A DNA stretch of 64,000 bases from the NCBI RefSeq assembly GCF_022539665.2, contig NC_081333.1, forward strand, positions 3,224,001-3,288,000, written 5' to 3'. The position numbers and the translations under genes are program-made. This document shows, one piece after another, positions 6,192-64,000 of this stretch. The stretch is from Daphnia carinata. Lineage: Eukaryota. Numbering within the stretch: position 1 is the stretch's first letter; every line of letters starts with the position of its first letter. Under the pieces are notes generated by a model. The model was not told where the DNA came from and did not search any database. It worked only from the letters and a program-made list of their open reading frames with translations.

Positions 6192-6300
6192 ACGTGCAGT
6201 TTTATCGATCGAATTCAAATCAAAATTTTATTTGATTGAAATCGATCGAATTCAAATCAAAATTTTATTTGATTTGAATTCGATCGATAAAACTGCACGT
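6192..6300. repeat. Short palindrome with ~33-bp arms and an internal direct duplication
   Basis: acgtgcagttttatcgatcgaattcaaatcaaa ... tttgatttgaattcgatcgataaaactgcacgt; atcgatcgaattcaaatcaaaattttatttgatt occurs twice inside. Confidence 0.85.
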
Positions 6301-6591
6301 CTAGCCACTTATGGCAACCCGTTTTTCCCAAAATAAAAAATAAAAATACGGTCTTTTTTTCTCTTTTACTATGGCATATGGCTATGGCAATCCGTTTTAC
6401 ATAAAAAAATTTAAAAAAAATGGCGGAAAAAAAAAAAATCGCACTTTTTTCTCTTTTTTCTACCCGTAGCCATCTATCAGTCGGTTTCGTTATTACAGGC
6501 ATGTAAGCAATTTGAGTTAATTGTATCCCATTAGCAGTTAATTGAGTAGCGTGGCTGGAGAACAACGCGTGGCTGGAGGAACAATTGAAAA

Positions 6592-7600
6592 ATGGATAAG
6601 ATAATAAAACAAAAAAATGGTAAGTATAAACATTATTATATTGGTTTTCAATTATTAATTATTGTTTATTAGATCAAATTATGAAGCTGCAGGCCCAGTT
6701 ATTGGAACAACACAAAATATTAGATAACAAAGCTAAGGATCGTAGGCCTAACACGTAATGATTCTATTTATTTGCTTTTATTCATTCGTGTTTTGTAGCT
6801 CAAATTTTGAGTCTACAAGCTCAGCTAGGGGAAAAGAACAAATTGGAATGAAACAGTTTCCAAACAGTGAAGGAGGTTTTTCCAAACTCATGCCTAACTG
6901 AACATGAGGATGAATTGGCATTAGGTGAAGTAGTTAGGTACCTAAACTTTTCAAATAAGAATTCAAAATAAGTATAGAATTTTAACAAACAATTATTTAT
7001 TGTTTAGTTATTCAGTCTACCACCTGATAGTGTGTTAAATTTAAATTCTGTTAGTGCTGCACTAAAAGAATCGTTAGTAATAAGCTCATGCAGTGAAGGA
7101 ACTGAACAATTGTGGGACCGTATTTGGGCCGAAAATGGGTGTGGTACAGAAACCCAGAAATGGCACAAGTTCAACATGAAACATAGATTAGTTACTTTTT
7201 GGTTTTTTGTCTATCGAAAAAGTATTTTTAATGCTATTATTTTGCATTCACAGATTTTAACGGGGGATCAAATCAAGTCTGGAAGTGTTACAGGATGGAA
7301 GAGTGAGCCTACAGATGAAAAAACACTGAGAGTGCATTACCGTAAGGTGTGAGGTAAATTAATAGAGTAATGCAAATTGCCTAATGAGAAGTACCATCTT
7401 GTGTTAATGAATCCAGTACAACAGCAATCCTTTATAGTTCTGTCACAGCTAGAAGCCTCAAATAATTCTGCTTCTCTGTCTAAAGAACAACTTGTCCTTT
7501 ACGTTCAGACTGTTGGGGAAACTGGGTACTTAAATGGCCCTAAAGATGTTTTAATTTTGCTGCTATTGCAGAGATGAACATCATACATGGACTCTTTAGG
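6592..7600 (+). pseudogene. Spliced coiled-coil gene remnant in left arm of palindrome 1 (3' end approximate)
   Basis: ATG GAT AAG..AAT G|gtaagt, ~50-nt introns, exons MDKIIKQKN-DQIMKLQAQLLEQHKILDNKAKD-xQILSLQAQLGEKNKLE*...; premature TGA near 6848. Confidence 0.6.
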
Positions 7601-8065
7601 TATGAAAGGATTTTTCTTCAAATAATTTTGAATTTATGACGAAGAATTTCTCCTCCTTTTTGCCAACCAGGTCTTATCTACCAAAAAAAAATTTAACCAA
7701 TAGGAAAGGATTTTCATGTACTGGGAACACAACTATCAACAACGCAACATTCTACAGGTGCTAGTTTATCATTCAAGAGCCTTATACAATGAAGTTAATC
7801 TGCAATTTGTATGTCCTTTCCCAAGCTTCCACCAGAAGTTGAATCTATGAGTCATGTAAGTTCCATGATCAACAATTGATGTGTTTAATGGTGTTGTTTT
7901 TCTTTTCTCAATATAGGTTAATAGTAAAATTGGATCTGAAAAGATTCTTGGTTGGGGCAAGACACTGAATAAATTGTATTGATTGGATGGATGACATGAC
8001 ATTGCTATACTTAATTCGGATTCCCCAGACGGTATTTGATATTAAAAAAATTGAAGTGCATATCT

Positions 8066-8408
8066 GGGCTCCCTTCTTTTCTGAAGCCCCGTTTCCCCTT
8101 GACTCATAATAAGCCCGTAGGGGGTCATGCCCCTACTGTACGGTATATATAAAAACAACATATACCGAGGTTTGGAGGGCTCTGGCCGGAAAGGGGACGT
8201 GGGGTGCCGCTTAGTCCGATGATGTGTTCACGGAGGGTGACGTGGCTGCCCACAAATCCGAACTAAAGGTTAATCGCTCCTGTAAAAATGTTCCAAATCT
8301 TCAGCTCTTCTTCCGGCTTCTCTTAGCCAATCACCGGGTAATCTCCCCGGTGGGTCAACAAGGCAGTGTCTCCCCCTGCCTGGGTTGACGGCAACTTTTG
8401 AAAGGGCT
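8066..8408 (-). ncRNA. Candidate structured RNA of unknown class (left arm, copy 1)
   Basis: Reverse complement of 9352-9694; multiple hairpins and long-range stems. Confidence 0.45.
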
Positions 8409-8674
8409 ATTGTGCCTTTTTAAAGTTGCAAAAATAATTGTTATGTGCAGAGAATTGTCAATAAAATTTTTTTTATAAAATGTTTTTTGCAAAATTTTTT
8501 TCTTTCATTGTCTGTGTTCGCTTTGTTCACACATTACATTTATCAACTTTTTTTTTATTTAGCTTGCTCATTTCATCTTTATTGTTTATGCCACCTTTGT
8601 TCTTTATCAGCATTGTTTACTATTTATTACACTAATACATGGATATTATCTGTATTTTGTACTTGTACATTGTT

Positions 8675-8742
8675 TTATTCAGGGATCGATCCCCAGACAT
8701 TCAGCGTGCAACGCCGATGCTCTAACAATGAGCCACGAGATA
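8675..8742 (-). other. tRNA-like unit (TGC at anticodon position), degenerate
   Basis: rc: TGGCTCATTGTTAGAGC (A box/D arm), TCGGC-GTTGCAC-GCTGA anticodon arm, GGATCGATCC (B-box-like). Confidence 0.6.
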
Positions 8743-9021
8743 TATCTAAATTTTTTATCATCGCATATCATATGTTATCGTCTAGCATGTTTATGCACTT
8801 TGAATAAAACTGAAATGTTTATCTATTTTTTTCTTCATTTAGATATAGATCTTTAAACATCTCACTGCGATAACTGAACCCAGGGTTCAAACCGCAGCTG
8901 AATGCTTAAAGATCTATATCTAAATGAAGAAAAAAAATTGATAAACATATAGTTTTATTCAAAGTGAAAGATGCATAAACATCCTAGACGATAACATAAT
9001 ATGCGATAATAATAAATTAAA

Positions 9022-9088
9022 TGATTCATAGCTCAATGTTAGAGCATCGGCGTTGCACGAAATGTCTGGGTTCGATTCCCATGAGTAA
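9022..9088 (+). other. tRNA-like unit, degenerate (pseudo-tRNA or SINE head)
   Basis: TGATTCA TA GCTC AATGTTA GAGC A TCGGC GTTGCAC ... TGGG TTCGATT CCCA TGAGTAA: acceptor stem 6/7 paired, canonical A and B boxes, anticodon arm partly deleted. Confidence 0.65.
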
Positions 9089-9351
9089 AACAATGTACAA
9101 GTACAAAAATACAGATAATATCGATAAAATAAATAGAAACAATACTTACAGATAAACGATACAACGGTGGCAAAAACAATAAAGATGAATTGAGCAAGCT
9201 AATAAAAAAAAAGTTGATAAATGTAATGTGTGAACAAAGCGAACACAGACAATGAAAGAAAAAATTTTTGCAAAAAACATTTTATAAAAAAAATTTTATT
9301 GACAATTCTCTGCACATAACAATTATTTTTGCAACTTTAAAAAGGCACAAT

Positions 9352-9694
9352 AGCCCTTTCAAAAGTTGCCGTCAACCCAGGCAGGGGGAGACACTGCCTT
9401 GTTGACCCACCGGGGAGATTACCCGGTGATTGGCTAAGAGAAGCCGGAAGAAGAGCTGAAGATTTGGAACATTTTTACAGGAGCGATTAACCTTTAGTTC
9501 GGATTTGTGGGCAGCCACGTCACCCTCCGTGAACACATCATCGGACTAAGCGGCACCCCACGTCCCCTTTCCGGCCAGAGCCCTCCAAACCTCGGTATAT
9601 GTTGTTTTTATATATACCGTACAGTAGGAGCATGACCCCCTACGGGCTTATTATGAGTCAAGGGGAAACGGGGCTTCAGAAAAGAAGGGAGCCC
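9352..9694 (+). ncRNA. Candidate structured RNA of unknown class (right arm, copy 1)
   Basis: GC-rich island in AT-rich context; stems gtcaac/gttgac, aggcag/ctgcct, caccggg/cccggtg, gccggaa/ttccggc, ttagttcgg/tcggactaa, cggtatat/atataccg, gtagg/cctac, gggcttc/ggagccc; G-U pairs favour this strand. Confidence 0.5.
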
Positions 9695-10159
9695 AGATAT
9701 GCACTTCAATTTTTTTAATATCAAATACCGTCTGGGGAATCCGAATTAAGTATAGCAATGTCATGTCATCCATCCAATCAATACAATTTATTCAGTGTCT
9801 TGCCCCAACCAAGAATCTTTTCAGATCCAATTTTACTATTAACCTATATTGAGAAAAGAAAAACAACACCATTAAACACATCAATTGTTGATCATGGAAC
9901 TTACATGACTCATAGATTCAACTTCTGGTGGAAGCTTGGGAAAGGACATACAAATTGCAGATTAACTTCATTGTATAAGGCTCTTGAATGATAAACTAGC
10001 ACCTGTAGAATGTTGCGTTGTTGATAGTTGTGTTCCCAGTACATGAAAATCCTTTCCTATTGGTTAAATTTTTTTTTGGTAGATAAGACCTGGTTGGCAA
10101 AAAGGAGGAGAAATTCTTCGTCATAAATTCAAAATTATTTGAAGAAAAATCCTTTCATA

Positions 10160-11170
10160 CCTAAAGAGTCCATGTATGATGTTCATCTCTGCAATAGCAG
10201 CAAAATTAAAACATCTTTAGGGCCATTTAAGTACCCAGTTTCCCCAACAGTCTGAACGTAAAGGACAAGTTGTTCTTTAGACAGAGAAGCAGAATTATTT
10301 GAGGCTTCTAGCTGTGACAGAACTATAAAGGATTGCTGTTGTACTGGATTCATTAACACAAGATGGTACTTCTCATTAGGCAATTTGCATTACTCTATTA
10401 ATTTACCTCACACCTTACGGTAATGCACTCTCAATGTTTTTTCATCTGTAGGCTCACTCTTCCATCCTGTAACACTTCCAGACTTGATTTGATCCCCCAC
10501 TAAAATTCTGTGAATGCAAAATAATAGCATTAAAAATACTTTTTCGATAGACAAAAAACCGAAAAGTAACTAATCTATGTTTCATGTTGAACTTGTGCCA
10601 TTTCTGGGTTTCTGTACCACACCCATTTTCGGCCCAAATACGGTCCCACAATTGTTCAGTTCCTTCACTGCATGAGCTTATTACTAACGATTCTTTTAGT
10701 GCAGCACTAACAGAATTTAAATTTAACACACTATCAGGTGGTAGACTGAATAACTAAACAATAAATAATTGTTTGTTAAAATTCTATACTTATTTTGAAT
10801 ACTTATTTGAAAAGTTTAGGTACCTAACTGTGTTCACCTAATGCCAACTTCATCCTCATGTTCAGTTAGAGATGAGTTTTGAAAAACCTCCTTCACTGTT
10901 TGGAAACTGTTTCATTCCAATTTGTTCTTTCCCCTAGCTGAGCTTGAAGACTCAAAATTTGAGCTACAAAACACAAATGAATAAAAGCAAATAAATAGAA
11001 TCATTACGTGATAGGCCTACGATCATTAGCTTTGTTATCTAATATTTTGTGTTGTTCCAATAACTGGGCCTGCAGCTTCATAATTTGATCTAATAAACAA
11101 TAATTAATAATTGAAAACCAATATAATAATGTTTATACTTACCATTTTTTTGTTTTATTATCTTATCCAT
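10160..11170 (-). pseudogene. Spliced coiled-coil gene remnant in right arm of palindrome 1 (3' end approximate)
   Basis: Mirror image of 6592-7600, with the same premature stop. Confidence 0.55.
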
Positions 11171-11439
11171 TTTTCAATTGTTCCTCCAGCCACGCGTTAT
11201 TCTCCATCCACGTTCCTGAACTAACTGCGAATGGCATCCAATGGACTGAAATTGCCTACGCCAGTAATAACGAGTCTGAGCGGTAGATGGCTGCGTGTCG
11301 GAAAAAAAGAAAAAAGTGTGATTTTTTTTTTTTTTTGGCGAAATTTTTTTTTTTTTTTGTGTAAAACGGATTGCCATATTTCGTCATCTACCGGTCACGT
11401 TAATTCTCTAAATACACAAAAAAAATTTTAAGCCCAACT

Positions 11440-12210
11440 AAATAAGCCCGACTTTACTCGGTCGGGTTTAAAAAAATTTTCTGCAAAAATTGAAGCTAAT
11501 CAGAATTGGTTGAATATCACAGGATATACTCAAAATTGAATGCTGATTCCGGGGAAATTGCTACTTTTTTCACTGAGTTAATCGTTTTTGAAGTAAACCG
11601 AATATTTGACGCAGTGCTAGCGCGCCAGTACGCTACAGCGCTAGCGCGATGCAGCAAAATATTAGTTGAGTGTATGTAGAGAACTAACTATATATCTGGC
11701 CGGTAGATGGCGATAGCAGTGGGTTGAAAATAAGCCCGACAAAAAAAATTAGCCCGAACTGTTAGCGCAACATGTGTATTTTACATTTATTTCAAAAACC
11801 GTAAAGCAAATGCAAAAATAAACTTGATTTTCATGATTTCCATTCAATTACGAATCGAAATGATGTATTTTACGTGAAATTTAAATTTGGGCCAAAGATG
11901 AAAAAGTGGGAAGGCTATATAGCCTTCTCACTTTTGTCAAAATCGGCCAAAAACGAAATCTCACGGAATTGGATGAAAATCGTACCGTATAATCAAAATT
12001 TAACGATGATTTCGATTCTGTGATTGGTTTTGTCGCTAAGCCATCCGTTTTTGAAATAAATTTAGAAAAGAAAAATAAACTTGGTTTTCTTGATTTTTGA
12101 ATAGAAATCATTTTAAAATAAATGATTTTCACTTAAAATAGTGAAGTTTAAATTTTTCCAACATTGAAAAGTGGGAAGAGTATAGGCTTCCCCAACGAAA
12201 CGAAATTTCG
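11440..12210. repeat. Second repeat family (AAGCCCGAC hairpin plus GCAAAAATAAACTTGATTTT / GAAAAAGTGG modules)
   Basis: 11812-11910 aligns by eye with 63856-63952; both loci also carry an aagcccgac...gtcgggytt hairpin (11441, 63712). Confidence 0.7.
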
Positions 12211-48900: not shown

Positions 48901-49461
48901 TCATATTGGACGCCTCTTATTCACCGTGTTATTCAGCTTCAGTCCAGCGCCAGGCGCTTAGCAGAGCGGTCGCATTCTTTATCAAATCCCGCTCTCTGAT
49001 TTATTCAGAAAGATAAAAAAAAAAAGAAAAAGAGAAGTTTGAGTTTGCACCATCTCGGCCACACACTTGTCCCCTCGCATCCCATTTCGAAATCTCTTTT
49101 TGAATTTTCCAATTGTTATCAACTCTCGTGCGGGGAATTTTTCGTTTCTTTTCGAACCGAGTGACATCGACATTTTAACTAAAACGTGTGAGGGCGTGAA
49201 TGAATTGAAATCGAAACAATTCGTTTCTATGTGAAATTAAAGTTCGTGAATTATTTTGTTTTGGTTTAGTGCCGTGGAAAGGACACGCGCGGACAAACGA
49301 TTGTCCTTTGATTTGTTCGATTTGGACGTTGGGACCGGGGGAGGGGGATCCCGGATCGGCAGTGTTTGATTCGTTGTGTGTGTGTGTGTGTGTGTGTGTG
49401 TGGAAGCGAGTCGATCCGGCGGAGGAGGGCGGAGACGACATTTGAGAAAGAGGAGGAGGCG

Positions 49462-52400
49462 ATGATGCAGCCTCGCGACGCTCACGACGACGGCGATTGC
49501 GCAATGGAAGAGGCAGGCGGTGTACTACACTCGTCGCCCATGCCGGCCGTCATGACTCTGACGACCAGCTCGAAGACGAACGCCTCTTGCCCATCATCGT
49601 CCAATCAGCAAACAAACGAGCAGATCAGGCACCGTCAGAGGACGGCCTCGCCGCTCTCTGCAGCCGCCGCCGATGCGCTCGTCGGGGCCAGGAAACGCAA
49701 AGCCATCAGAGTGGTCAAACATCAGCAGGTCAGTCCTCCTCCTTCCCCCCCCCCCTCCCAACTCTATTTCGCTTAATTATTATGGAATATTCATCCAAAG
49801 AAATATGGGCATTTGCATTTGTTTTTGCCTCACGCTCGTTTGCTCGTAATCGATTCAGACGTTTTCATTTGCATTGCTAATGATGTCCAAATAAAAAATA
49901 AATAATAATTGAATAGCAGGCGTCGAGTCCGATGAAAGCGGATCCCGAGCCGGAAGAGCCTATCGTTTTGACGAGAACGAGCCACCACTTGGCCGGATTC
50001 AGTGGAAACAACAAGACGGCCGAGCAAGGCAACACGTCGATGGACACGGGCGTGTCATCGGACCTGTCTGAATCGAGGCCCAGCCTGGCCGGCGAGGAAG
50101 ACGAGGAGGAGGAAGACGTGGAAATTCTGAACGAAGACGACGAACGTTCGCACGGATCGGCCGGAGAGGAAGAATCCGGCGGCGAGTTTTATCAATCGGC
50201 CGCCAGTCATCGCAATCATCATCACCGCCGCCGCATCATCGGCCGCCATTCGGAGGATTCCGAGAGCAACGATTCCGGTAGCGGACACGAAGACGGCCGG
50301 CGTTTGAGACAGAAGAATCGGCGCACGATGAGACAGCGGCGCGATCAAGGAAGGAAACGCCAGCGGACAGCGGATGAGATGATAGACGAGGATGATCATG
50401 AGATGGATCATTGCGGCGCTGATGCGGACGACTCGCGCCGCTGTCACCCGATCGGCGAGCAGAAGACGAGAATTTCGATACTCCAAGACGCGAGTAGCGT
50501 CGGTAGCGTCGACTTCTCTTGCCAGCGAGCCACGTCCAACATGATCCATCCGGCGACCTTGGCCCGTCCCGTCCTTTCTTCCGCCCACTTGGCGGCCGTG
50601 GGATCGCCACACTTGGCCGTCGAGAGCATCTCTTCTTCGAAATCGTCCGCTCCGCTGGCCGTGGTGGAGACGGGCAGCGGTGAGGCGGTCCGTGCGCCCT
50701 TTGCGACGGCGGCGACATCTAGCGGTCGGTACGCTAACCACTTGTTTCAACACGACGAGCTCCTCACCAACCCGCCGGAAGAGTACAAGAACGAGGAGGA
50801 CGATCCTTTCTCCGCCGTCCTGCGCGAAATGAAAATCAAAGGAGAATTCCCCTGCAGACTCTGCGAAGCCGTTTTCCCCAATCTGCGCGCTCTTAAAGGT
50901 CAGTTTTCAAATTTTATTTGTTTTCTTCTTATCAATGCGACAGGAAGGAAGTTGTGAAAACGGTGCGTTATCAATTCTAATCGTGTTGTTCAAACTCTTG
51001 CCAGAATTAAACACGTTAAGGAAAAAAAAATCCTTACAGTTAATGACGCTGTTACTATAATTACAAATAATATTATCTGGCGTTAGCCAAGCGTGGGGCG
51101 CAGGCGCAGATATTTGTGTCTCGTGCACCGGAAATGCGTTAGATAACCGGCAGAAAAGAGAAAAAAAAAAAAAAATCAAATAAAATCTTGCAGTCTCACA
51201 TTTACAGACGCATAACAACAAAATAGAAACTAAGACGTAATGTGGGGGATCACGCGAGATGCAAGAGGAAGACGATGGGGTTAGGGAGAACGAGATCATC
51301 TTCCTTCCTTAAACGAATTGATTGATTAAATAATCGATTCTATTTTCTTTTTCTATTTTTTTTTTTTTTTAATTTGAACCAAAAAAAAAAAAAAAAATGG
51401 AATTCAGGTCACAACCGGAACCATCTGACTCACGCTCCTTACCGGTGCAACATGTGCCCGAGCACGAGCCACGATAAGGGCGCTCTGATTCGGCACATGC
51501 GGACGCACAACGGCGAGCGGCCCTACGAATGTCGCGACTGCCAGTACGCCTTCACCACCAAGGCCAATTGCGAGAGGCATTTGCGCAACCGGCACGGAAA
51601 GGCCAGCCGGGAGGCTGTTAGGGCCTCGATCGTTTACCACTTGAGCGAGGACGCCAACCGGGCGCTGGGCGGCGATAATTCCGACCATTCCGGCAGTTAC
51701 TACCAGGGCCACAACGACCAATCAGCTCTCGATCTAAGCGCCGATCGCGACGAGTCCATCGACGGCGAGGAGGAGGAGGAGTCCACTGATTATCCGTCGG
51801 AAGAGGAAGCTGAAGATGAACGTGGCGCGGCCATCGTCGAACAAGACGGGCCGTTAGATTTGACGGTGGACGTGTTGGATTTGCGGAAGCGGCGGCAGGA
51901 AACGAAAGCCCCGCCGTCGAATTTCAATCCCGTGGCCGTCGTTCCAGTCACGTCGGCGTCGCATCATCAGAACGCCGTTCCGGCTCAGACTGTCGCTCCG
52001 ACGGCCGCCGTTGCGCCCGCCGTCCAGACTTCAGTTGCCGACGTCAAACCGGCCGTACCTTTCGCGCCGCCCTATTTCGGATCGTCTTACCCGGGCACGG
52101 TGGCCTCGCTGGCCGGCTTGCCTTTCTTCTATCCCGGCCTGGGCGGGGCCAATTATTCCGCATTTTTCGAATCGAAACTGGTCGAAATGGGCCATCAAAA
52201 TCCGGCTGTTGATCTGTCCGCCTTGGCTTTGGCCGCTGCTCATCACGACGCGCTGCGTCAGGCCCAGCAAGTGCAGAAACCTCAGCCGAATCATCCGCCG
52301 CCGGCCTCGTTGGTCGAAGGGCTCTTAATGCCCGCTGCTAAAAAATTCAGCGCTGACCCCGCCGAGAACGTCCGTCCCGTCCCGATGCCCATCCCGACGA

Positions 52401-54632
52401 GTCCCGCCAAATTGGAGTCTAAAAAATCGAGCCATCATCACAGCGGTTCGTCCGCGCAGGCCGTTAACGATCCGGGCGTCAAGATGGTGCTCAAGAACGG
52501 CGTGCTGGTCAAGAAGCAGAAACAGCGTCGCTACCGGACGGAGCGTCCGTTCGGCTGCGAGCACTGCACGGCCCGTTTCACGCTGCGCTCCAACATGGAG
52601 CGACACATCAAACAGCAACACCCGGACATTTGGTCGACCCGTCCTCGAGGGCATCGAAGATCGGCCTGCGCATTAACCAAAGCGGCCGCTCTGCCCACGA
52701 TGGTGGACCTGAAAGGCCACATGGTCAACGCGATGCCGGCCCTCGCCCCGCAAATGGTGCAAGAGGCTTCCGTCAAGCTGGAAATCGGCGGAGGGAAAGC
52801 GCCCATCTCGGAGCAAGTCCGCCAGGCCGTCCAGCAGAAATTGAAGAAGCGCCGCAACAGCGAGCATTCCGAAGACGAGGAAGAGGACGATGATGAGGAA
52901 GAAGAAGAAGACGACGATGGTAATTTGGTCATTGATATTGAGCGGAAAGATCACGGCCCAACTGGCCAGAGAATTGTGGCCAGCAAGCCGGAACCGGCCG
53001 ATTTGGCCAGCGTTTCCAAATTGCTGACCAACGCCGTGGCCCAGAGTTTCCAGCAGTATTTCAATCAGCACCGCGACGCCGAGCTGGAGAGCTCGGTGAC
53101 GAGCGACAAGATGAACCGGGCCAGCCCGTCTGAAGGCAACACTGACGAGATGGACGAAGGTGAATGCACGAGCATCAGCGACGGCCATTCGGGCGGCAGC
53201 GATTTCGGCGGGAACCGCTCGGACAGCGGCGGCGGACAGGCGGTGAAAGGGAAGAAGAAGAGCGCTTATTCGAACGCTCCCCATCGGGTGAGTTGCCCGT
53301 ATTGTTCGCGCAAGTTTCCGTGGACCAGCTCGCTGCGACGTCACATCCTGACGCACACGGGCCAGAAACCGTACAAGTGTCCGCAGTGCCCGCTCTGGTT
53401 CACAACGAAATCCAACTGCGACCGCCATCTGTTGCGCAAACACGGAAACCATCTGCACGGCGGAGGCGGCGAGACGGCCAACAACAACAGCAACAACAGC
53501 GTGGCCAGCAGCAACGCGGCGGCCGATAATTCGCGCAACGTTCCAGACCGGCCGTACAAGTGCGCCCTGTGTCCGTCGTCCACCTTCGCCACGTCGGACA
53601 ATCTGAAGAAGCACGTCGACAACAAACACTGCCCCGCCCATCACGGCGGAATGAGCAGCCCGGAGTCGATCGCGGCGGCCGACGGCGAGTCTGAGAAAGT
53701 GCGCCATCATCATCAGTCCAGCAATCCAGCCAGTCCGGGCCCTCAGGCGGGCGACGGCAATTCGGCCGCTGGGGGCCCTTTGGGCGGCCGGCGAGCAACT
53801 GCCTTTCAAATGCCATTTGTGCGACGACTCTGGAGGCTACGCCGAGAGACAGGAAGTGCTGGATCACCTCCAGCGGGACCACACGGAAGAGTTCCATGAC
53901 CTCGTAGGCAAAGTCGGCGCTTTGGTGGCTGAGCCGCCGCCAATGCCGTCCGCTCCGACTTCGGACGAAGGCGAAGACTACGATTCCGTCCGCGGCAAAT
54001 TCCCAGATTACGTCAACAGAAAGGTAAAACATTTTTCGCAACCCTCAAATAGATCAAGAAAGAAAAAAAAAACAAAAAAAAAGAATTACAGTTTATAATA
54101 ATAATAATACATTTTTAATTTTTTTTTAAATAATTAGGTGATTTGTGCCTTTTGTTTGCGACGCTTCTGGTCGGCCGAAGACCTACGACGTCACATGAGG
54201 ACGCACAGTGGCGAGCGGCCATATCAGTGCGACGTGTGCTCGCGTCGCTTCACCTTGAAACATTCCATGTTGCGACACAGACGGAAGCACGGCGGATCCG
54301 GTCACGCGGAAGAGAGCGACGAAGAGGAAGAAGAAGAAGAGGAAGAAGAGGATGGATCGATCAGTTCGGATCATCGGGCCAATCAGCGCCACGCTCGTCG
54401 GGAATCGTCCAGGTCTTCGGCCAAGGCCAAAGTGCGCATGCAGGCTGCCCTCTGGAGCGGCTCCAAGTCCGTTAAATCGACGGGCGGTATGAGACTCCGC
54501 GGACCGTGCGGCTCAGATCTGATCGGCAACTTGCTCGGCATTCCAGACACGTCGCTAGTAGAGCAGCTCATGTCCAAACCGGCCGACGATGCCGCTCGTC
54601 TTCTGGGCGTCACCGGTGGCAATCGCGTTTGA
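49462..54632 (+). CDS. RREB1: Ras-responsive element-binding protein 1 / hindsight (pebbled) C2H2 zinc-finger transcription factor
   Basis: Exons 49462-49728, 49920-50898, 51408-54023 (one apparent frameshift near 53780), 54138-54632; characteristic fingers [76 protein letters not shown] CtBP-type motif; DLASVSKLL box. Confidence 0.92.
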
Positions 54633-58240: not shown

Positions 58241-58712
58241 CTAAAAAAAAAAACGTAGTTTTATCTTAAATCTGCTGATAATTTGAAGAAGGTGCTCCGG
58301 TTCCACGGTGTCATCGTTTCACAGGATGACGCAGCACTTTCTTTTCTCGTTGATAAAAAACCACTACAATATTTAGTTTTCCGATAAAGATTCTCTTTAG
58401 AGTCTAGATGATTGCTGAATGTACCACCGACACCATTGTGACGGATATGTCTGCCAACAGATGACGCCTTCATCGAAAAATTAAAACCCTTTACCGCTTT
58501 GATATGGCAATCCGTTTAACACAAAAAAAAAAAAAAAATTTCGCCAAAAAAAAAAAAAAAATCACACTTTTTCTTTTTTTTCCGACACGTAGCCATCTAC
58601 CGCTCAGACTCGTTATTACTGGCGTAGGCAATTTCAGTCCATTGGATGCCATTCGCAGTTAGTTCAGTAGCGTGGATGGAGAATAACGCGTGGCTGGAGG
58701 AACAATTGAAAA

Positions 58713-59770
58713 ATGGATAAGATAATACAACAAAAGGATGGTAAGTATAAACATTATTATATTGGTTTTCAATTATTAATTATTGTTTATTAGATCAAAT
58801 TATGAAGCTGCAGGCCCAATTATTGGAACAACACAAAATATTAGATAACAGCAAAGCTAAGGATGGTAAGGCCGTAATGATTCTATTTATTTGCTTTTAT
58901 TCATATGTGTTTTGTAGCTCAAATTTTGAGTCTACAAGCTCAGCTAGGGGAAAAGAACAAATTGGAACGGAACAGTTTCCAAACAGTGAAGGAGGTTTTT
59001 CAAAACTCTTCTCTAACTGAACATGAGGATGAGTTGGCATTAGGCGAACACAGTCAGGTACCTAAACTTTTCAAATAAGAATTCAAAATAAGTATAGAAT
59101 TTTAACAAACAATTATTTATTGTTTTGTTATTCAGTCCACCACCTGACAGTGTTTTAAGTTAAATTCTCTTAGTGCTGCACTAAAAGAATTGTTAGTAAT
59201 AAGTCCATGCAGCGACGGAAGTGAACAATTGTGGGACCGTATTTGGGCTGAAAAATGGGTGTGGTAAGGAAACCCAGAAATAGCACGAGTTCAACGTAAA
59301 ACATGAATTAGGTACTTTTCGGTTTTTTGTCTATCGAAAAAGTATTTTTAATGCTATTATTTTGCATTCACAGAATTTTAGTGGGGAATCAAGTGAAGTC
59401 TGAAAGTGTTACAGGATGGAAGAGTGAGCCTACAGTTGAAAAACACTGAAAGCGCATTACCATTAAGGTATGAGGTAAAGTAATAGAGTATGCAAATTGT
59501 CTAATGAGAAGTACCATCTTGTGTGAATGAATCCTGTGTAACAGCAATCTTTTATAGTTCTGTCACAGCAATCTTTTATAGTTCTGTCACAGCAATCCTT
59601 TATAGTTCTGTCACAGCTAGAAGCCTCAAATAATTCTGCTTCTCTTGCTAAAGAACAACTTGTCCTTTACGTTCAGAGTGTTGGTGAAGCTGGGTACTTA
59701 AATGGCCCTAAAGATGTTTCATTTCGTTGGCATTGCAGCGATGAACATCATACATGGACTTTTTAGGTAT
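58713..59770 (+). pseudogene. Spliced coiled-coil gene remnant, left arm of palindrome 2 (3' end approximate)
   Basis: MDKIIQQKD|DQIMKLQAQLLEQHKILDNSKAKD|AQILSLQAQLGEKNKLERNSFQTVKEVFQNSSLTEHEDELALGEHSQ| is open across three GT-AG-joined exons; later exons disrupted. Confidence 0.6.
59541..59617 (+). repeat. 24-bp tandem triplication
   Basis: acagcaatc(t/c)tttatagttctgtc x3; single copy in the other three arms. Confidence 0.9.
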
Positions 59771-60230
59771 GAAAGGAATTTTCTTGAAAATTTTTTGAAT
59801 TTATGACAAAGCATTTCTCCTGCTTTTTGCCAACCATGTCTAATCTAAAAAAAAAAATTTTATCCAATAGGAAAGGATTTTCAGCATACTGGGAACACAA
59901 CTATCAACAATGCAACATTCTAGGGGTGCTATTTTATCATTTAAGAGCCTTATACAATGATTTTCATCTGCAATTTGTATGGCCTTTCCCAAGCTTCTGC
60001 CAGAAATTGAATCTATAAGTCATGTAAGTCACATGAGCAACAATTGAGATGCTTAATGGTGTTTTTCTTTTCTCAGCATAGGTTAATAGTAACATTGGAT
60101 CTGAAAAGATTCTTGGTTGGGGCAAGACACTGAATAAATTGTAATGATTGAATGGATGACATGACATTTCTATACTTAATTTGGATTCCCGAGACGGTAT
60201 GTTATATTTAAAAAATTGAAGTGCATATCT

Positions 60231-60573
60231 GGGCTCCCTTCCTTTCCGTAGCCCCGTTTCCCCTTGACTCGTAATAAGCCCGTAGGGGGTCATGCCCCTA
60301 CTGTACGGTATATATAAAAACAACATATACCGAGGTTTGGAGGGCTCTGGCCGGAAAGGGGACGTGGGGTGCCGCTTAGTCCGATGATGTGTTCACGGAG
60401 GGCGACGTGGCTGCCCACAAATCCGAACTAAAGGTTAATCGCTCCTGTAAAAATGTTCCAAATCTTCAGCTCTTCTTCCGGCTTCTCTTAGCCAATCACC
60501 GGGTAATCTCCCCGGTGGGTCAACAAGGCAGTGTCTCCCCCTGCCTGGGTTGACGGCAACTTTTGAAAGGGCT
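60231..60573 (-). ncRNA. Candidate structured RNA (left arm, copy 2)
   Basis: Near-identical to 8066-8408. Confidence 0.45.
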
Positions 60574-60798
60574 ATTGTGCCTTTTTAAAGTTGCAAAAAT
60601 AATTGTGATGTGCAGAGAATGGCCAATAAATTTTTTTTTATAAAATGTTTTTGCAAAATTTTTTTCTTTCATTGTCTGTGTTCACACATTACATTTATCA
60701 ACTTTTTTTTTATTTCAATTCACCTTTATTGTTTATGCCACCTTTGATTGTAAGCATTGGTCCCATTGGTTTATCGTTTATCTGTAAACATTCAATTA

Positions 60799-60866
60799 TT
60801 ATCCAGGGATCGAACCCTGGATGTTCGGCATACCGCGCCGATGCTATACCAATGAGCCATGAATCA
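60799..60866 (-). other. tRNA-like unit with a different anticodon-loop sequence (GCGGTAT)
   Basis: rc: TGATTCA TG GCTCATTGGTATAGC A TCGGC-GCGGTAT-GCCGA ACAT CCAGGGTTCGATCCCTGG. Confidence 0.6.
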
Positions 60867-61114
60867 TATGATGTCAGGTTAGCTTTTTTCTAGTCACTTG
60901 CGGACTTGCATTTACACTTTGAATAAAATTGAAACGTAGATCTTTATATATCTACTAAGGTTTGAACCCAGGGTAACAGTTACCGCAGCTGAATGCTCTA
61001 CCACAGAGCTATGAACCTTATGAAAGTTATAAAAAGATAAATATATACTTGTGAAAGACTACATAAACATCCTATACTATAACATATGATATGCGATAAT
61101 AGATATGATAGATA

Positions 61115-61185
61115 TATCTCGTGGCTCAATGTTAGAGCATCGGCGTTGCACGCTGAATGTCTGGGGATCGATTCCCATACCAGTA
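61115..61185 (+). other. tRNA-like unit (TGC at anticodon position), degenerate
   Basis: GTGGCTCAATGTTAGAGCA TCGGC-GTTGCAC-GCTGA ATGTCTGGGGATCGATTCCCA. Confidence 0.6.
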
Positions 61186-61500
61186 AAACAATATACAAGT
61201 ATAAAATTACTTCAGAAAATATCCAGGTATTACACGCTGTTCCTTGTCTAAGTTAAAGAATTCAAGAAGTGTAATAAGTACTAATTGAATACTAACAGAT
61301 AAGCGATACAATGGTGGCAAAAACCATAAAAATGAATTGAGCAAGCTAAATAATAAAAAAAGTTGATAAATGTAATGTGTGAACACAGCTAACACAGACA
61401 ATGAAAGAAAAAAATTTTGCAAAAAACATTTTATAAAAAAAAATTTATTGACAATTCTCTGCACATCACAATTATTTTTGCAACTTTAAAAAGGCACAAT

Positions 61501-61843
61501 AACCCTTTCAAAAGTTGCCGTCAACCCAGGCAGGGGGAGACACTGCCTTGTTGACCCACCGGGGAGATTACCCGGTGATTGGCTAAGAGAAGCCGGAAGA
61601 AGAGCTGAAGATTTGGAACATTTTTACAGGAGCGATTAACCTTTAGTTCGGATTTGTAGGCAGCCACGTCGCCCTCCGTGAACACATCATCGGACTAAGC
61701 GGCACCCCACGTCCCCTTTCCGGCCAGAGCCCTCCAAACCTCGGTATATGTTGTTTTTATATATACCGTACAGTAGGGGCATGACCCCCTACGGGCTTAT
61801 TACGAGTCAAGGGGAAACGGGGCTTCAGAAAAGAAGGGAGCCC
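61501..61843 (+). ncRNA. Candidate structured RNA (right arm, copy 2)
   Basis: Near-identical to 9352-9694. Confidence 0.45.
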
Positions 61844-62304
61844 AGATATGCACTTCAATTTTTTAAATATCAAATACCGTCTGGGGAATCCAATTAAGTA
61901 TAGAAATGTCATGTCATCCATCCAATCAATACAATTTATTCAGTGTCTTGCCCCAACCAAGAATTTTTCAGATCCAATGTTACTATTAACCTATATTGAG
62001 AAAAGAAAAACAACCATTAAACATATCAACTGTTGATCATGTAACTTACATGACTCATAGATTCAACTTCTGGTGGAAGCTTGGGAAAGGACATACAAAT
62101 TGCAGATTAAAATCATTGTATAAGGCTCTTGAATGATAAACGAGCACCTGTACAATGTTGCATTGTTGATAGTTGTGTTCCCAGTACATGAAAATCCTTT
62201 CCTATTGGATAAAATTTTTTTTTTTAGATTAGACATGGTTGGCAAAAAGCAGGAGAAATGCTTTGTCATAAATTCAAAACTATTTGAAGAAAAATCCTTT
62301 CATA

Positions 62305-63319
62305 CCTAAAGAGTCCATGTATGATGTTCATCTCTGCAATGGCAGCAAAATTAAAACATCTTTAGGGCCATTTAAGTACCCAGTTTCCCCAACACTCTGA
62401 ACGTAAAGGACAAGTTGTTCTTTAGACAGAGAAGCAGAATTATTTGAGGTTTCTAGCTGTGACAGAACTATAAAGGATTGCTGTTGTACTGGATTTATTA
62501 ACACAAGATGGTACTTCTCATTAGACAATGTGCATACTCTATTACTTTACCTCATACCTTAATGGTAATGCACTCTCAGTGTTTTTTCATCTGTAGGCTG
62601 ACTCTTCCATCCTGTAACACTTCCAGACTTGATTTGATCCCCCATTAAATTCTGTGAATGCAAAATAATAGCATTAAAAATACTTTTTCAATAGACATAA
62701 AACCGAAAAGTACCTAATCCATGTTTCATGTTGAACTTGTGCCATATCTTGGTTTCCGTACCACACCCATTTTCGGCCCAAATACGGTCCCACAATTTGT
62801 TCACTTCCTTCACTGCATGGGCTTATTACTAACAATTCTTTTTGTGCAGCACTAACAGAATTTAAATTTAACACACTGTCAGGTGGTAGACTGAATAACT
62901 AAACAATATATAATTGTTTGTTAAAATTCTATACTTATTTTGAATTCTTATTTGAAAAGTTTAGGTACCTGACTGTGTTCGCCTAATGCCAATTCATCCT
63001 CATGTTCAGTTAGAGAAGAGTTTTGAAAAACCTCCTTCACTGTTTGGAAACTGTTCCGTTCCAATTTGTTCTTTTCCCCTAGCTGAGCTTGTAGACTCAA
63101 ACTTTGAGCTACAAAACACAAATGAATAAAAGCAAATAAATAGAATCATTATGTATTAGGCCTTACCATCCTTAGCTTTCCTGTTATCTAATATTTTGTG
63201 CTGTTGCAATAATTGAGCCTGCAGGTCCATAATTTGATCTAATAAACAATAATTAATAATTCAAAACAAATATAATAATGTTTATACTTACCATCCTTTT
63301 GTTGTATTATCTTTTCCAT
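62305..63319 (-). pseudogene. Spliced coiled-coil gene remnant, right arm of palindrome 2 (3' end approximate)
   Basis: Mirror of 58713-59770; same GT-AG exon structure. Confidence 0.55.
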
Positions 63320-63699
63320 TTTTCAATTGTTCCTCCAGCCACGCGTTATTCTCCATCCACGCTACTGAACTAACTGCGAATGGCATCCAATGGACTAATA
63401 ATGAGTCTGAAGATTGCCTAAAAAAAGAAAAAAGTGTGATTTTTTTTTTTTTGGCGAAATTTTTTTTTTTTTTTTATGTAAAACGGATTGCCATACTTTG
63501 ATTGTTTTATTTATGAACTGCAAAACCAACAGGAAAACTGATATTGTTTTTGAAATAAGCATTAAATTTTGATTAAATTCCACGAGTTTTTTAGATTTCC
63601 AAGAGATGTCAAACAAAAGTGGGAAGGCTGCGATTCATTTTTCAAGTTCATTTTTGCATTTTTTTTTTGAAATATTCGTAAAAAACAGAGGGTGCGCTA

Positions 63700-64000
63700 A
63701 GAGGTCGGACAAATAAGCCCGACCCTCTATGTGTCGGGCTTATGTTTCTAGCCAAACATTTTGACAAAACTACTTGAAATTCAATGCAAAAATAAACAGT
63801 TATTTTAAAACTATATTGAATATTGGGCTGTAGCGTTCAAACCACAAACCCAATGCAAAAATAAACTTGATTTTCGTGGTTTCCATTCAATTAAGAATCG
63901 AAATCATGTATTTTAAATGAAATTTAAATTTTGGCCAAAAATGAAAAAGTGGAAAGCAAAAATAAACTTGATTTTCATGATTTCCATAATCAATTTTAAC
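63700..64000. repeat. Second repeat family, related to 11440-12210; runs off the window end
   Basis: ATAAGCCCGAC-loop-GTCGGGCTTAT hairpin and repeated GCAAAAATAAAC(T/A) modules. Confidence 0.7.

What the first reader, a model, noticed from the sequence alone, without database searches (positions are those of the whole stretch)
6383..11378. 5-kb self-complementary mobile element with a modular arm: spliced gene, structured RNA and tRNA-like unit around a central hairpin
Seen: the whole element is one inverted repeat with ~2.5 kb arms meeting at a small central hairpin with essentially no unique spacer. It recurs at 58503-63495 with the same TATGGCAATCCG termini. Each arm has, from end to centre, an inward-facing intron-containing gene, an outward-facing ~340-nt foldable GC-rich block and an outward-facing tRNA-like unit. 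No transposase, RT, Rep or integrase motif is visible. Known: foldback elements (FB, Galileo, MULE-derived) have long TIRs, but these are usually AT-rich tandem arrays around a spacer. Inference: this is a non-autonomous family, possibly undescribed, that moves or replicates as a hairpin and carries functional RNA cargo.
Basis: partly seen in the sequence, partly recalled or inferred. Interest (0 to 1): 0.9.

Follow-up and report, generated by a model that had tools for sequence, protein, structure and literature searches.

The report
Mirror transposon carrying ultraconserved structured RNA
This is a real 5-kb mirror-image jumping gene in a water-flea-type genome, likely a crippled offshoot of the IS3EU DNA transposons, whose decaying gene ends in a 333-base hairpin-rich block about nine times better conserved than the rest, which likely works as RNA but matches no known RNA family.

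Summary
In detail: 6383-11378 is one inverted repeat (95% self-complementary) with an 88% identical copy at 58503-63495; four distinct arms rule out a fold-back artefact. TATGG..CCATA ends and a 6-bp target duplication (copy 2 only) are IS3EU/GingerRoot hallmarks, so it likely moves by cut-and-paste with a transposase supplied in trans, not as a replicating hairpin. The arm gene is spliced; intact copies give a 143-aa protein annotated at four Daphnia carinata loci, and exon 4 is homologous to the stretch leading into an IS3EU transposase HTH. No DDE core was detected; all four arms here are broken. The unusual part is a 333-nt block (8107-8439): 4 of 333 columns vary among arms against 10-12% in exons and introns (p about 1e-9); it folds at z = -5.5, has no Rfam match, and is likely the 3' end of the inward transcript, not outward-facing. 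The central units are degenerate tRNA-like remnants, three in copy 2. Copy 1's arms were likely homogenised by conversion. Verdict: new variant of a known kind; the block's function is inferred and no covariation could be tested.

The parts
6383..11378 (.). Copy 1: whole palindromic element, ends TATGG..CCATA, no target duplication left
6383..6591 (+). Left terminal region with presumed promoter and 5' UTR; differs from the right end at 37 of 209 sites
   Evidence: promoter role inferred
6592..8112 (+). Left-arm spliced gene. Introns 6620-6672, 6742-6798, 6938-7007, 7192-7253 (supported by run X1 and the RefSeq protein), 7354-7416 (weak X1 joint), 7856-7916 (predicted only; an X1 contig reads through it). 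Exons 1-4 carry the 143-aa frame, broken in this arm
7008..7145 (+). Exon-4 stretch homologous to the segment leading into the HTH of an IS3EU-type transposase fragment (P0006, Daphnia magna)
8107..8439 (+). Ultraconserved hairpin-rich block, likely the 3' end of the inward transcript
8440..8560 (.). AT-rich spacer with an AATAAA at 8460
8680..8735 (-). Degenerate tRNA-like unit (A and B box, D, anticodon and T arms, no acceptor stem), outward-facing
   Evidence: (22.5 bits)
8855..8915 (.). Central hairpin of copy 1: a broken third tRNA-like unit
   Evidence: by alignment to the intact unit of copy 2
9022..9089 (+). Degenerate tRNA-like unit of the right arm
   Evidence: 28.8 bits, cut-off 29
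9321..9653 (-). Conserved block, right arm
9648..11170 (-). Right-arm spliced gene, frame broken
6310..6382 (+). 73-bp end fragment of a sister family (TATGGCAACCCG) abutting copy 1
58503..63495 (.). Copy 2 of the element
58497..58502 (.). Left 6-bp target duplication CTTTGA
63496..63501 (.). Right 6-bp target duplication CTTTGA
58713..60277 (+). Copy 2 left-arm gene, frame broken
60272..60604 (+). Conserved block, copy 2 left arm
60804..60859 (-). tRNA-like unit of a different variant
   Evidence: 24.8 bits
60947..61018 (-). Third tRNA-like unit in the asymmetric core of copy 2
   Evidence: ARAGORN, relaxed threshold only
61122..61177 (+). tRNA-like unit, copy 2 right arm
   Evidence: 23.3 bits
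61470..61802 (-). Conserved block, copy 2 right arm
61797..63319 (-). Copy 2 right-arm gene, frame broken

Best explanation
The element is a 5-kb palindrome with IS3EU-type ends, likely a non-autonomous IS3EU/GingerRoot derivative that is likely cut and pasted by a transposase made elsewhere, and whose conserved 333-nt hairpin block likely acts as the structured 3' end of the spliced RNA made inward from each arm. Shown: palindrome, two copies, TATGG..CCATA ends, 6-bp duplication at copy 2, spliced gene, homology of exon 4 to the lead-in of an IS3EU transposase HTH, ninefold higher conservation of the block, a 1306-bp tract identical between the arms of copy 1. Inferred: it arose when the transposase-side arm of a two-gene, tail-to-tail IS3EU was copied over the other arm by snap-back or template switching at the opposed tRNA-like units; arms keep exchanging sequence by gene conversion; the gene has decayed to a 143-aa coiled-coil remnant plus a long untranslated tail; the hairpin block ends and stabilises each transcript near 8439, before the centre, so that a transcribed palindrome avoids making a 2.5-kb fold-back dsRNA, and the outward Pol III-type units may add a barrier. 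Odds: IS3EU origin 0.85, block functional as RNA 0.55, the 3'-end role in particular 0.35.
For: Ends and duplication: against the IS3EU definition (PMC10045372 and PMC12730594, passages) and two authentic elements found here with TAYGG ends and 6-bp duplications (L030, L051). L030 has two inward-facing genes, an rva_4 transposase and a HECT-like ORF. P0001 against P0006: 30 of 59 identical, E 1e-18; P0006 residues 53-161 match an IS3EU transposase profile built here, E 2e-7 and rva_4/HTH clusters at 0.96-0.89. Dispersal: four D. carinata LOC ids on four contigs of different length; 661 variant contigs in run X1. Splicing: X1 joints skip introns 1, 2, 4, 5, loose ends join exons 3 and 4, flanks have no cover. 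Block: 4/333 variable columns against 50/420 (ORF), 76/729 (later exons), 38/366 (introns), Fisher p 1e-9 to 8e-9; invariant X1 contigs at 8107-8204 and 8304-8439; X2 differs at 0 of 162 sites in 8272-8433; X1 summed depth falls from 2475 to 299 at 8440 (a weak hint only). Of 8 substitutions seen in the block 5 are C>T and 0 G>A, against 12:14 in the gene part; two of them cost 1-2 kcal/mol on the + strand but about 7 on the - strand. Conversion: arms 1L and 1R are identical over 7254-8559 and share a stop and a dead splice donor while their ends differ at 37/209.
Against: Copy 1 has no target duplication (1 of 2 copies). No DDE core found: frameshift-tolerant score 19 against a shuffle maximum of 20.7 for the transposase profile, 23-28 against 38 for the P0006 HTH; only one of two IS3EU subfamilies could be profiled. 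No autonomous partner with these ends was found (no genome held). Run X1 is labelled DNA by guess and is contigs only, so strand, ends and level are not shown directly, and no single contig links exon 7 to the end of the block. The block folds equally well on both strands; there are no compensatory double changes; one of three paired C>T changes (8407) costs more on + than on -. Only 2 of 16 other IS3EU transposases have strongly folding sequence downstream, neither similar to the block.
Confidence: 0.62

Rival explanations
1. The block is conserved as DNA: an outward-facing Pol II promoter or protein-binding site that would drive antisense RNA or aid transposition.
For: It holds a TATA-like run at 8144, a CCAAT box at 8325 and TGACG at 8238 and 8386; it folds as well on the - strand.
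Against: 333 nt at 99% conservation with five dense hairpin domains is unusual for a promoter (own knowledge); tolerated changes lean to + strand G-U pairs; X1 cover is continuous from the spliced exons to 8439.
Confidence: 0.17
2. The block has no function; a recent sweep of gene conversion or a repair hot spot homogenised it across copies.
For: Conversion between arms is evident in copy 1; only four genomic arms and three runs were compared.
Against: The sharp border at 8107 recurs in X1 variants and in wetland run X2, where 8 of 9 differences in 8056-8225 lie upstream of it; copy 2's arms are not converted elsewhere (50/729) yet differ at 2/333 in the block.
Confidence: 0.13
3. The duplicated arm derives from the HECT-like second gene of IS3EU rather than from the transposase (this changes the origin of the gene only).
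For: A colinear stretch in exons 5-6 scores 48 against the L055 HECT-like ORF, above 100 shuffles (maximum 42).
Against: The same score is reached by unrelated window DNA (maximum 48); with a profile from 119 homologues the score is 17-21 against a shuffle maximum of 24; exon 4 links to a transposase HTH.
Confidence: 0.12
4. The element replicates or moves as a hairpin (rolling-hairpin or virus-like).
For: Copy 1 is self-complementary to its centre; arms exchange sequence.
Against: IS3EU-type ends with a 6-bp duplication; no Rep, HUH or polymerase family in any frame; copy 2 has an asymmetric core.
Confidence: 0.04
5. Assembly fold-back artefact or ordinary segmental duplication.
For: No read or contig spanning both arms was available.
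Against: Four different arms, unrelated flanks, a target duplication, homologues on four contigs.
Confidence: 0.02

Closest known systems
IS3EU/GingerRoot DNA transposons (PMC10045372, PMC12730594, PMC6839031; passages read)
   Same: TA..TA and TAYGG..CCRTA ends, 6-bp duplication, inward-facing genes from both ends, a stretch homologous to a transposase N-terminus
   Different: No DDE core and no second gene; the inverted repeat is the whole 2.5-kb arm instead of 30-150 bp; carries a conserved hairpin block and tRNA-like units not seen in the IS3EU loci fetched here
Foldback elements FB, Galileo, Tetris (PMC4079207, passages read; end and duplication lengths recalled)
   Same: Very long inverted repeats, non-autonomous; foldback form is said to arise independently in several superfamilies by transposase loss and TIR elongation
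   Different: No tandem AT-rich subrepeat arrays; arms are a transcribed gene; IS3EU rather than Mutator or P ends
tRNA-derived SINE heads and tRNA pseudogenes (recalled)
   Same: A and B boxes with D, anticodon and T arms
   Different: No acceptor stem, below the Rfam cut-off; embedded in the centre of a DNA transposon; independent mobility not tested
Structured 3' elements of transposon RNAs such as ENE triple helices (search listing only; features recalled)
   Same: Structured module at the 3' end of a transposon-derived transcript
   Different: No U-rich internal loop in the predicted fold; five hairpin domains over 333 nt; no Rfam match at E <= 10

Membership tests
IS3EU/GingerRoot (filed here only as a likely non-autonomous derivative, not as an autonomous member) | TA..TA termini, TAYGG..CCRTA | tested here: met
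   all four ends TATGG / CCATA; definition
IS3EU/GingerRoot | 6-bp target site duplication | tested here: inconclusive
   present at copy 2 (CTTTGA), absent at copy 1, which abuts another end fragment: 1 of 2
IS3EU/GingerRoot | TIR longer than 30 bp | tested here: met
   whole-arm inverted repeat
IS3EU/GingerRoot (autonomous) | DDE transposase core (rva_4, PF24764) | tested here: not met
   Pfam none; own profile none; second subfamily could not be profiled
IS3EU/GingerRoot | Gene homologous to the transposase outside the core | tested here: met
   indirect, through P0006; 59-aa stretch only
IS3EU/GingerRoot (autonomous) | Second gene opposite the transposase | tested here: not met
   replaced by the mirror arm; HECT-like profile not significant
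IS3EU/GingerRoot | Autonomous partner with the same ends in the genome | not testable with these tools
   no genome held
FB-type foldback | Long TIRs built of tandem AT-rich subrepeats | tested here: not met
   only 2-3 copy repeats of 14-18 bp inside the element
Galileo (P superfamily) | THAP/P transposase, 7-bp duplication (recalled) | tested here: not met
tRNA gene | Cloverleaf with acceptor stem above detection cut-off | tested here: not met
   ARAGORN 0; Rfam 22.5-28.8 bits, three of four hits cover model positions 8-63 only
Known ncRNA families (Rfam 15) | Covariance-model match to the block | tested here: not met
   0 matches at E <= 10 over 8090-8460; 0 at gathering score in the window
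Conserved structured RNA (new) | Compensatory base changes | tested here: inconclusive
   only 8 substitutions known, none double
Any described repeat family | Full-length match in Repbase or Dfam | not testable with these tools
   neither library is offered

The most novel reading that the evidence does not exclude
A DNA-transposon family that has given up its transposase and now spreads and expresses a new class of structured RNA: the 333-nt block is the selected cargo, and it lets a fully palindromic, transcribed element stop both transcripts short of the centre and so escape small-RNA silencing, or serves the host as a multicopy non-coding RNA gene.
Probability: 0.27. Interest if true: 0.82.

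Novelty: new variant of a known kind. Interest (0 to 1): 0.55.

Why it matters
Long palindromes are normally unstable and silenced, yet this family appears dispersed and transcribed. Inside a decaying transposon, a non-coding block nine times better conserved than the protein frame points to selection on an RNA or DNA module of unknown kind. It offers a testable case of how a transcribed palindrome might avoid dsRNA silencing, and a clear record of arm-to-arm gene conversion. It also extends IS3EU to a foldback form and to Daphnia, neither of which turned up in the paper searches; Repbase was not searchable.

Tried and rejected
No whole genome is held, so copy number and a partner were not counted. 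Pfam on read-through frames: 0 families in 12 of 12 whole frames; 4 weak unrelated hits (E 0.06-0.16) in 24 sub-frames. Word-based protein searches with exon 4-5 and with P0006 among longer proteins: none, weak evidence. P0002, a bacterial Ig-repeat protein, scored through 25 low-scoring repeats and was dropped as spurious. By eye the later exons resembled first IS3EU DDE motifs and then HECT motifs; both failed frameshift-tolerant tests with shuffle and other-DNA controls and are rejected as unproven. Recurrent in-frame TGA as selenocysteine: rejected, stops of all three kinds occur in every frame. Fanzor/OMEGA: no nuclease family. 7SK and telomerase RNA: no GATC and no CCTAA/TTAGG in the block (motifs recalled). 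Collection scans: terminal pattern, 4 viral contigs, none with further similarity; block pattern 0; P0006 in viral contigs 0; exon-4 alignment in metagenome contigs 0 of 154 candidates. Model of the last three hairpins: only the 4 window copies in 82 sources (window, 80 of the 120 IS3EU loci, L125). AlphaFold on the 143-aa protein: helix 2-60 confident, rest not, pTM 0.29; no PDB match; Atlas best 0.76. No RNA holder listed by the run search; run X4 laid nothing. Synonymous to non-synonymous codon differences between arms, about 9:17, show no clear protein constraint in these broken arms. Earlier findings: none.
Full report
1. The observation. Self-BLAST shows 6383-11378 as one inverted repeat, 95.0% identical to its own reverse complement over 5049 columns, and a second copy at 58503-63495, 88% identical. 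All four ends read TATGGCAATCCG. The arms are four different sequences, the flanks are unrelated and copy 2 lies between 6-bp direct repeats, CTTTGA, so a fold-back read artefact or a plain segmental duplication is unlikely. Copy 1 is 82% self-complementary through its centre, whereas copy 2 has an asymmetric core at about 60747-61308. No whole genome was held.

2. Superfamily. IS3EU elements have TA..TA ends and usually 6-bp duplications and form one lineage with GingerRoot (PMC10045372, passages); rust-fungus families end TAYGG..CCRTA and carry a second gene opposite the transposase (PMC12730594, passages); GingerRoot TIRs are 100-150 bp (PMC6839031, passages). As a control I fetched 120 IS3EU transposase loci with a short motif. 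Two have TACGG ends with clean 6-bp duplications (L030, L051; two further candidates lack a clean one). L030 carries two inward-facing genes, an rva_4 transposase and a HECT-like ORF. The window's element looks like this layout with one arm mirrored. Against: copy 1 has no duplication; it abuts a 73-bp end fragment of a sister family.

3. The gene. Six GT..AG introns were predicted. Run X1, labelled DNA by guess, has contigs that skip introns 1, 2, 4 and, weakly, 5, loose ends that join exons 3 and 4, and no cover of the unique flank, so it behaves like an RNA library; one of its contigs reads through intron 6, which is therefore predicted only. 661 contigs at 80-100% identity were laid, which suggests many copies. 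A search of 1.84 billion representatives gave 6 hits: two Daphnia carinata proteins (143 and 102 aa, 90% identical; with cluster members four LOC ids on four contigs of 9.4-14.4 Mb), three more distant relatives, and one spurious repeat protein. The 143-aa protein follows exons 1-4. All four arms in the window break this frame. It is predicted to begin with a long helix; the rest is unmodelled and has no structural match. The D. magna relative P0006 shares 30 of 59 residues with it (E 1e-18) and continues directly into an HTH region that matches my IS3EU transposase profile from 19 loci (E 2e-7, residues 53-161) and rva_4/HTH clusters in the Atlas. I infer that the arm is the transposase arm. 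The downstream exons did not match significantly: transposase profile 19 against a null maximum of 20.7, P0006 HTH 23-28 against 38, HECT-like ORF 48 against 42 (shuffles) and 48 (other DNA), deeper HECT profile 17-21 against 24. The alignment of IS3EU cores in the supplement of PMC10045372 (part 12 and search passages) shows two subfamilies; only one could be profiled, so the origin of exons 5-7 is open.

4. The conserved block. Over 8107-8439 only 4 of 333 columns vary among the four arms, against 50/420 in the ORF, 76/729 in the later exons and 38/366 in introns (Fisher p 1e-9 to 8e-9). X1 has invariant contigs at 8107-8204 and 8304-8439; wetland run X2 differs at 9 sites in 8056-8225, all but one upstream of 8107, and at 0 of 162 in 8272-8433; X3 differs at 5 sites and 2 gaps in 8207-8456. 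The block folds at -132 kcal/mol, z = -5.45 on + and -5.64 on -, into two small hairpins, a large branched domain and three terminal hairpins. Rfam gives nothing at E <= 10. X1 cover runs on from the spliced exons and falls from 2475 to 299 at 8440; contigs cannot show ends, so this is a hint. Of 8 substitutions seen, 5 are C>T and none G>A (gene part 12:14); two cost 1-2 kcal/mol on + and about 7 on -, one goes slightly the other way. There is no compensatory pair, so structure is not proven. TATA-, CCAAT- and TGACG-like motifs keep a DNA-level role alive. The block is not general to IS3EU: 2 of 16 other transposases have strongly folding downstream sequence, unrelated to it, and a model of the last three hairpins found only the four window copies in 82 sources.

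5. The centre. Outward tRNA-like units score 22.5-28.8 bits against a cut-off of 29; ARAGORN finds none by default. They keep A and B boxes but lack an acceptor stem, and the centre is the most variable part (175/299 columns). Copy 2 has three units; copy 1's central hairpin is a broken third unit made more symmetric. They are best read as tRNA-derived remnants, not working tRNAs.

6. Arm exchange. Arms 1L and 1R are identical over 1306 bp and share a stop codon and a dead splice donor, while their outer 209 bp differ at 37 sites and the 1R end is closer to 2L (10 sites). This indicates recent intra-element conversion in copy 1; copy 2's arms differ at 50/729.

7. Mechanism. Shown: anatomy, ends, one duplication, splicing, constraint, conversion tract. 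Inferred: origin by mirroring the transposase arm at the opposed tRNA-like units; movement by an IS3EU transposase in trans; the block as 3'-end and stability element that halts each inward transcript before the centre and so avoids a long fold-back dsRNA. Rivals are a DNA-level promoter or binding site, neutral homogenisation, a HECT-arm origin, hairpin replication and artefact.

8. Known and new. Foldback form is said to arise independently in several superfamilies by transposase loss and TIR elongation (PMC4079207, passages), so the palindrome alone is a variant of a known theme; FB-type tandem arrays are absent. Searches for IS3EU with Daphnia, palindromes, tRNA-like or non-coding cargo listed no paper describing this (listings only, apart from the papers named and two uninformative passages of PMC9587614). 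Repbase, Dfam, subscription papers and bioRxiv supplements were not visible, and a Repbase entry is quite possible. The new and unexplained part is the constrained block. Verdict: new variant of a known kind, interest 0.55.

Noticed in passing
L030:379-6358; also L009, L012, L013, L018, L036, L041, L055, L064: Animal IS3EU loci carry a HECT-like second gene; in L030 it faces the transposase tail to tail (Pfam HECT E 9e-5, below the curated cut-off); 148 homologues found; 'IS3EU' with 'HECT' gave 0 papers
   Followed up: partly
window 6554-6593 and 8479-8566, run X3: One 151-nt contig at depth 3 joins the spacer to the reverse complement of the 5' UTR, as a one-armed variant with about 210-bp TIRs would; weak
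   Followed up: no
window 8439, run X1: A contig continues past the block with a different, self-complementary sequence, suggesting a variant with an extra hairpin; another transcript shares only 8430-8564
   Followed up: no
window 6192-6300: Self-complementary 110-bp MITE-like element with an internal 37-bp repeat
   Followed up: no
window 6306-6309 and 11379-11720: Copy 1 and the 73-bp fragment may sit inside the left end of a 340-bp element with imperfect inverted repeats and a CACTG-type end
   Followed up: partly
window 11796-11913 and 63839-63956: The same 118-bp repeat (89%) lies 340-420 bp to the right of both copies
   Followed up: no
window 49300-54630: Multi-zinc-finger gene resembling RREB1/hindsight (name recalled) in a microsatellite-rich region between the copies
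   Followed up: no
L125:944-1057: Broken IS3EU-type transposase fragment in an alphaproteobacterial MAG, probably eukaryotic contamination
   Followed up: partly
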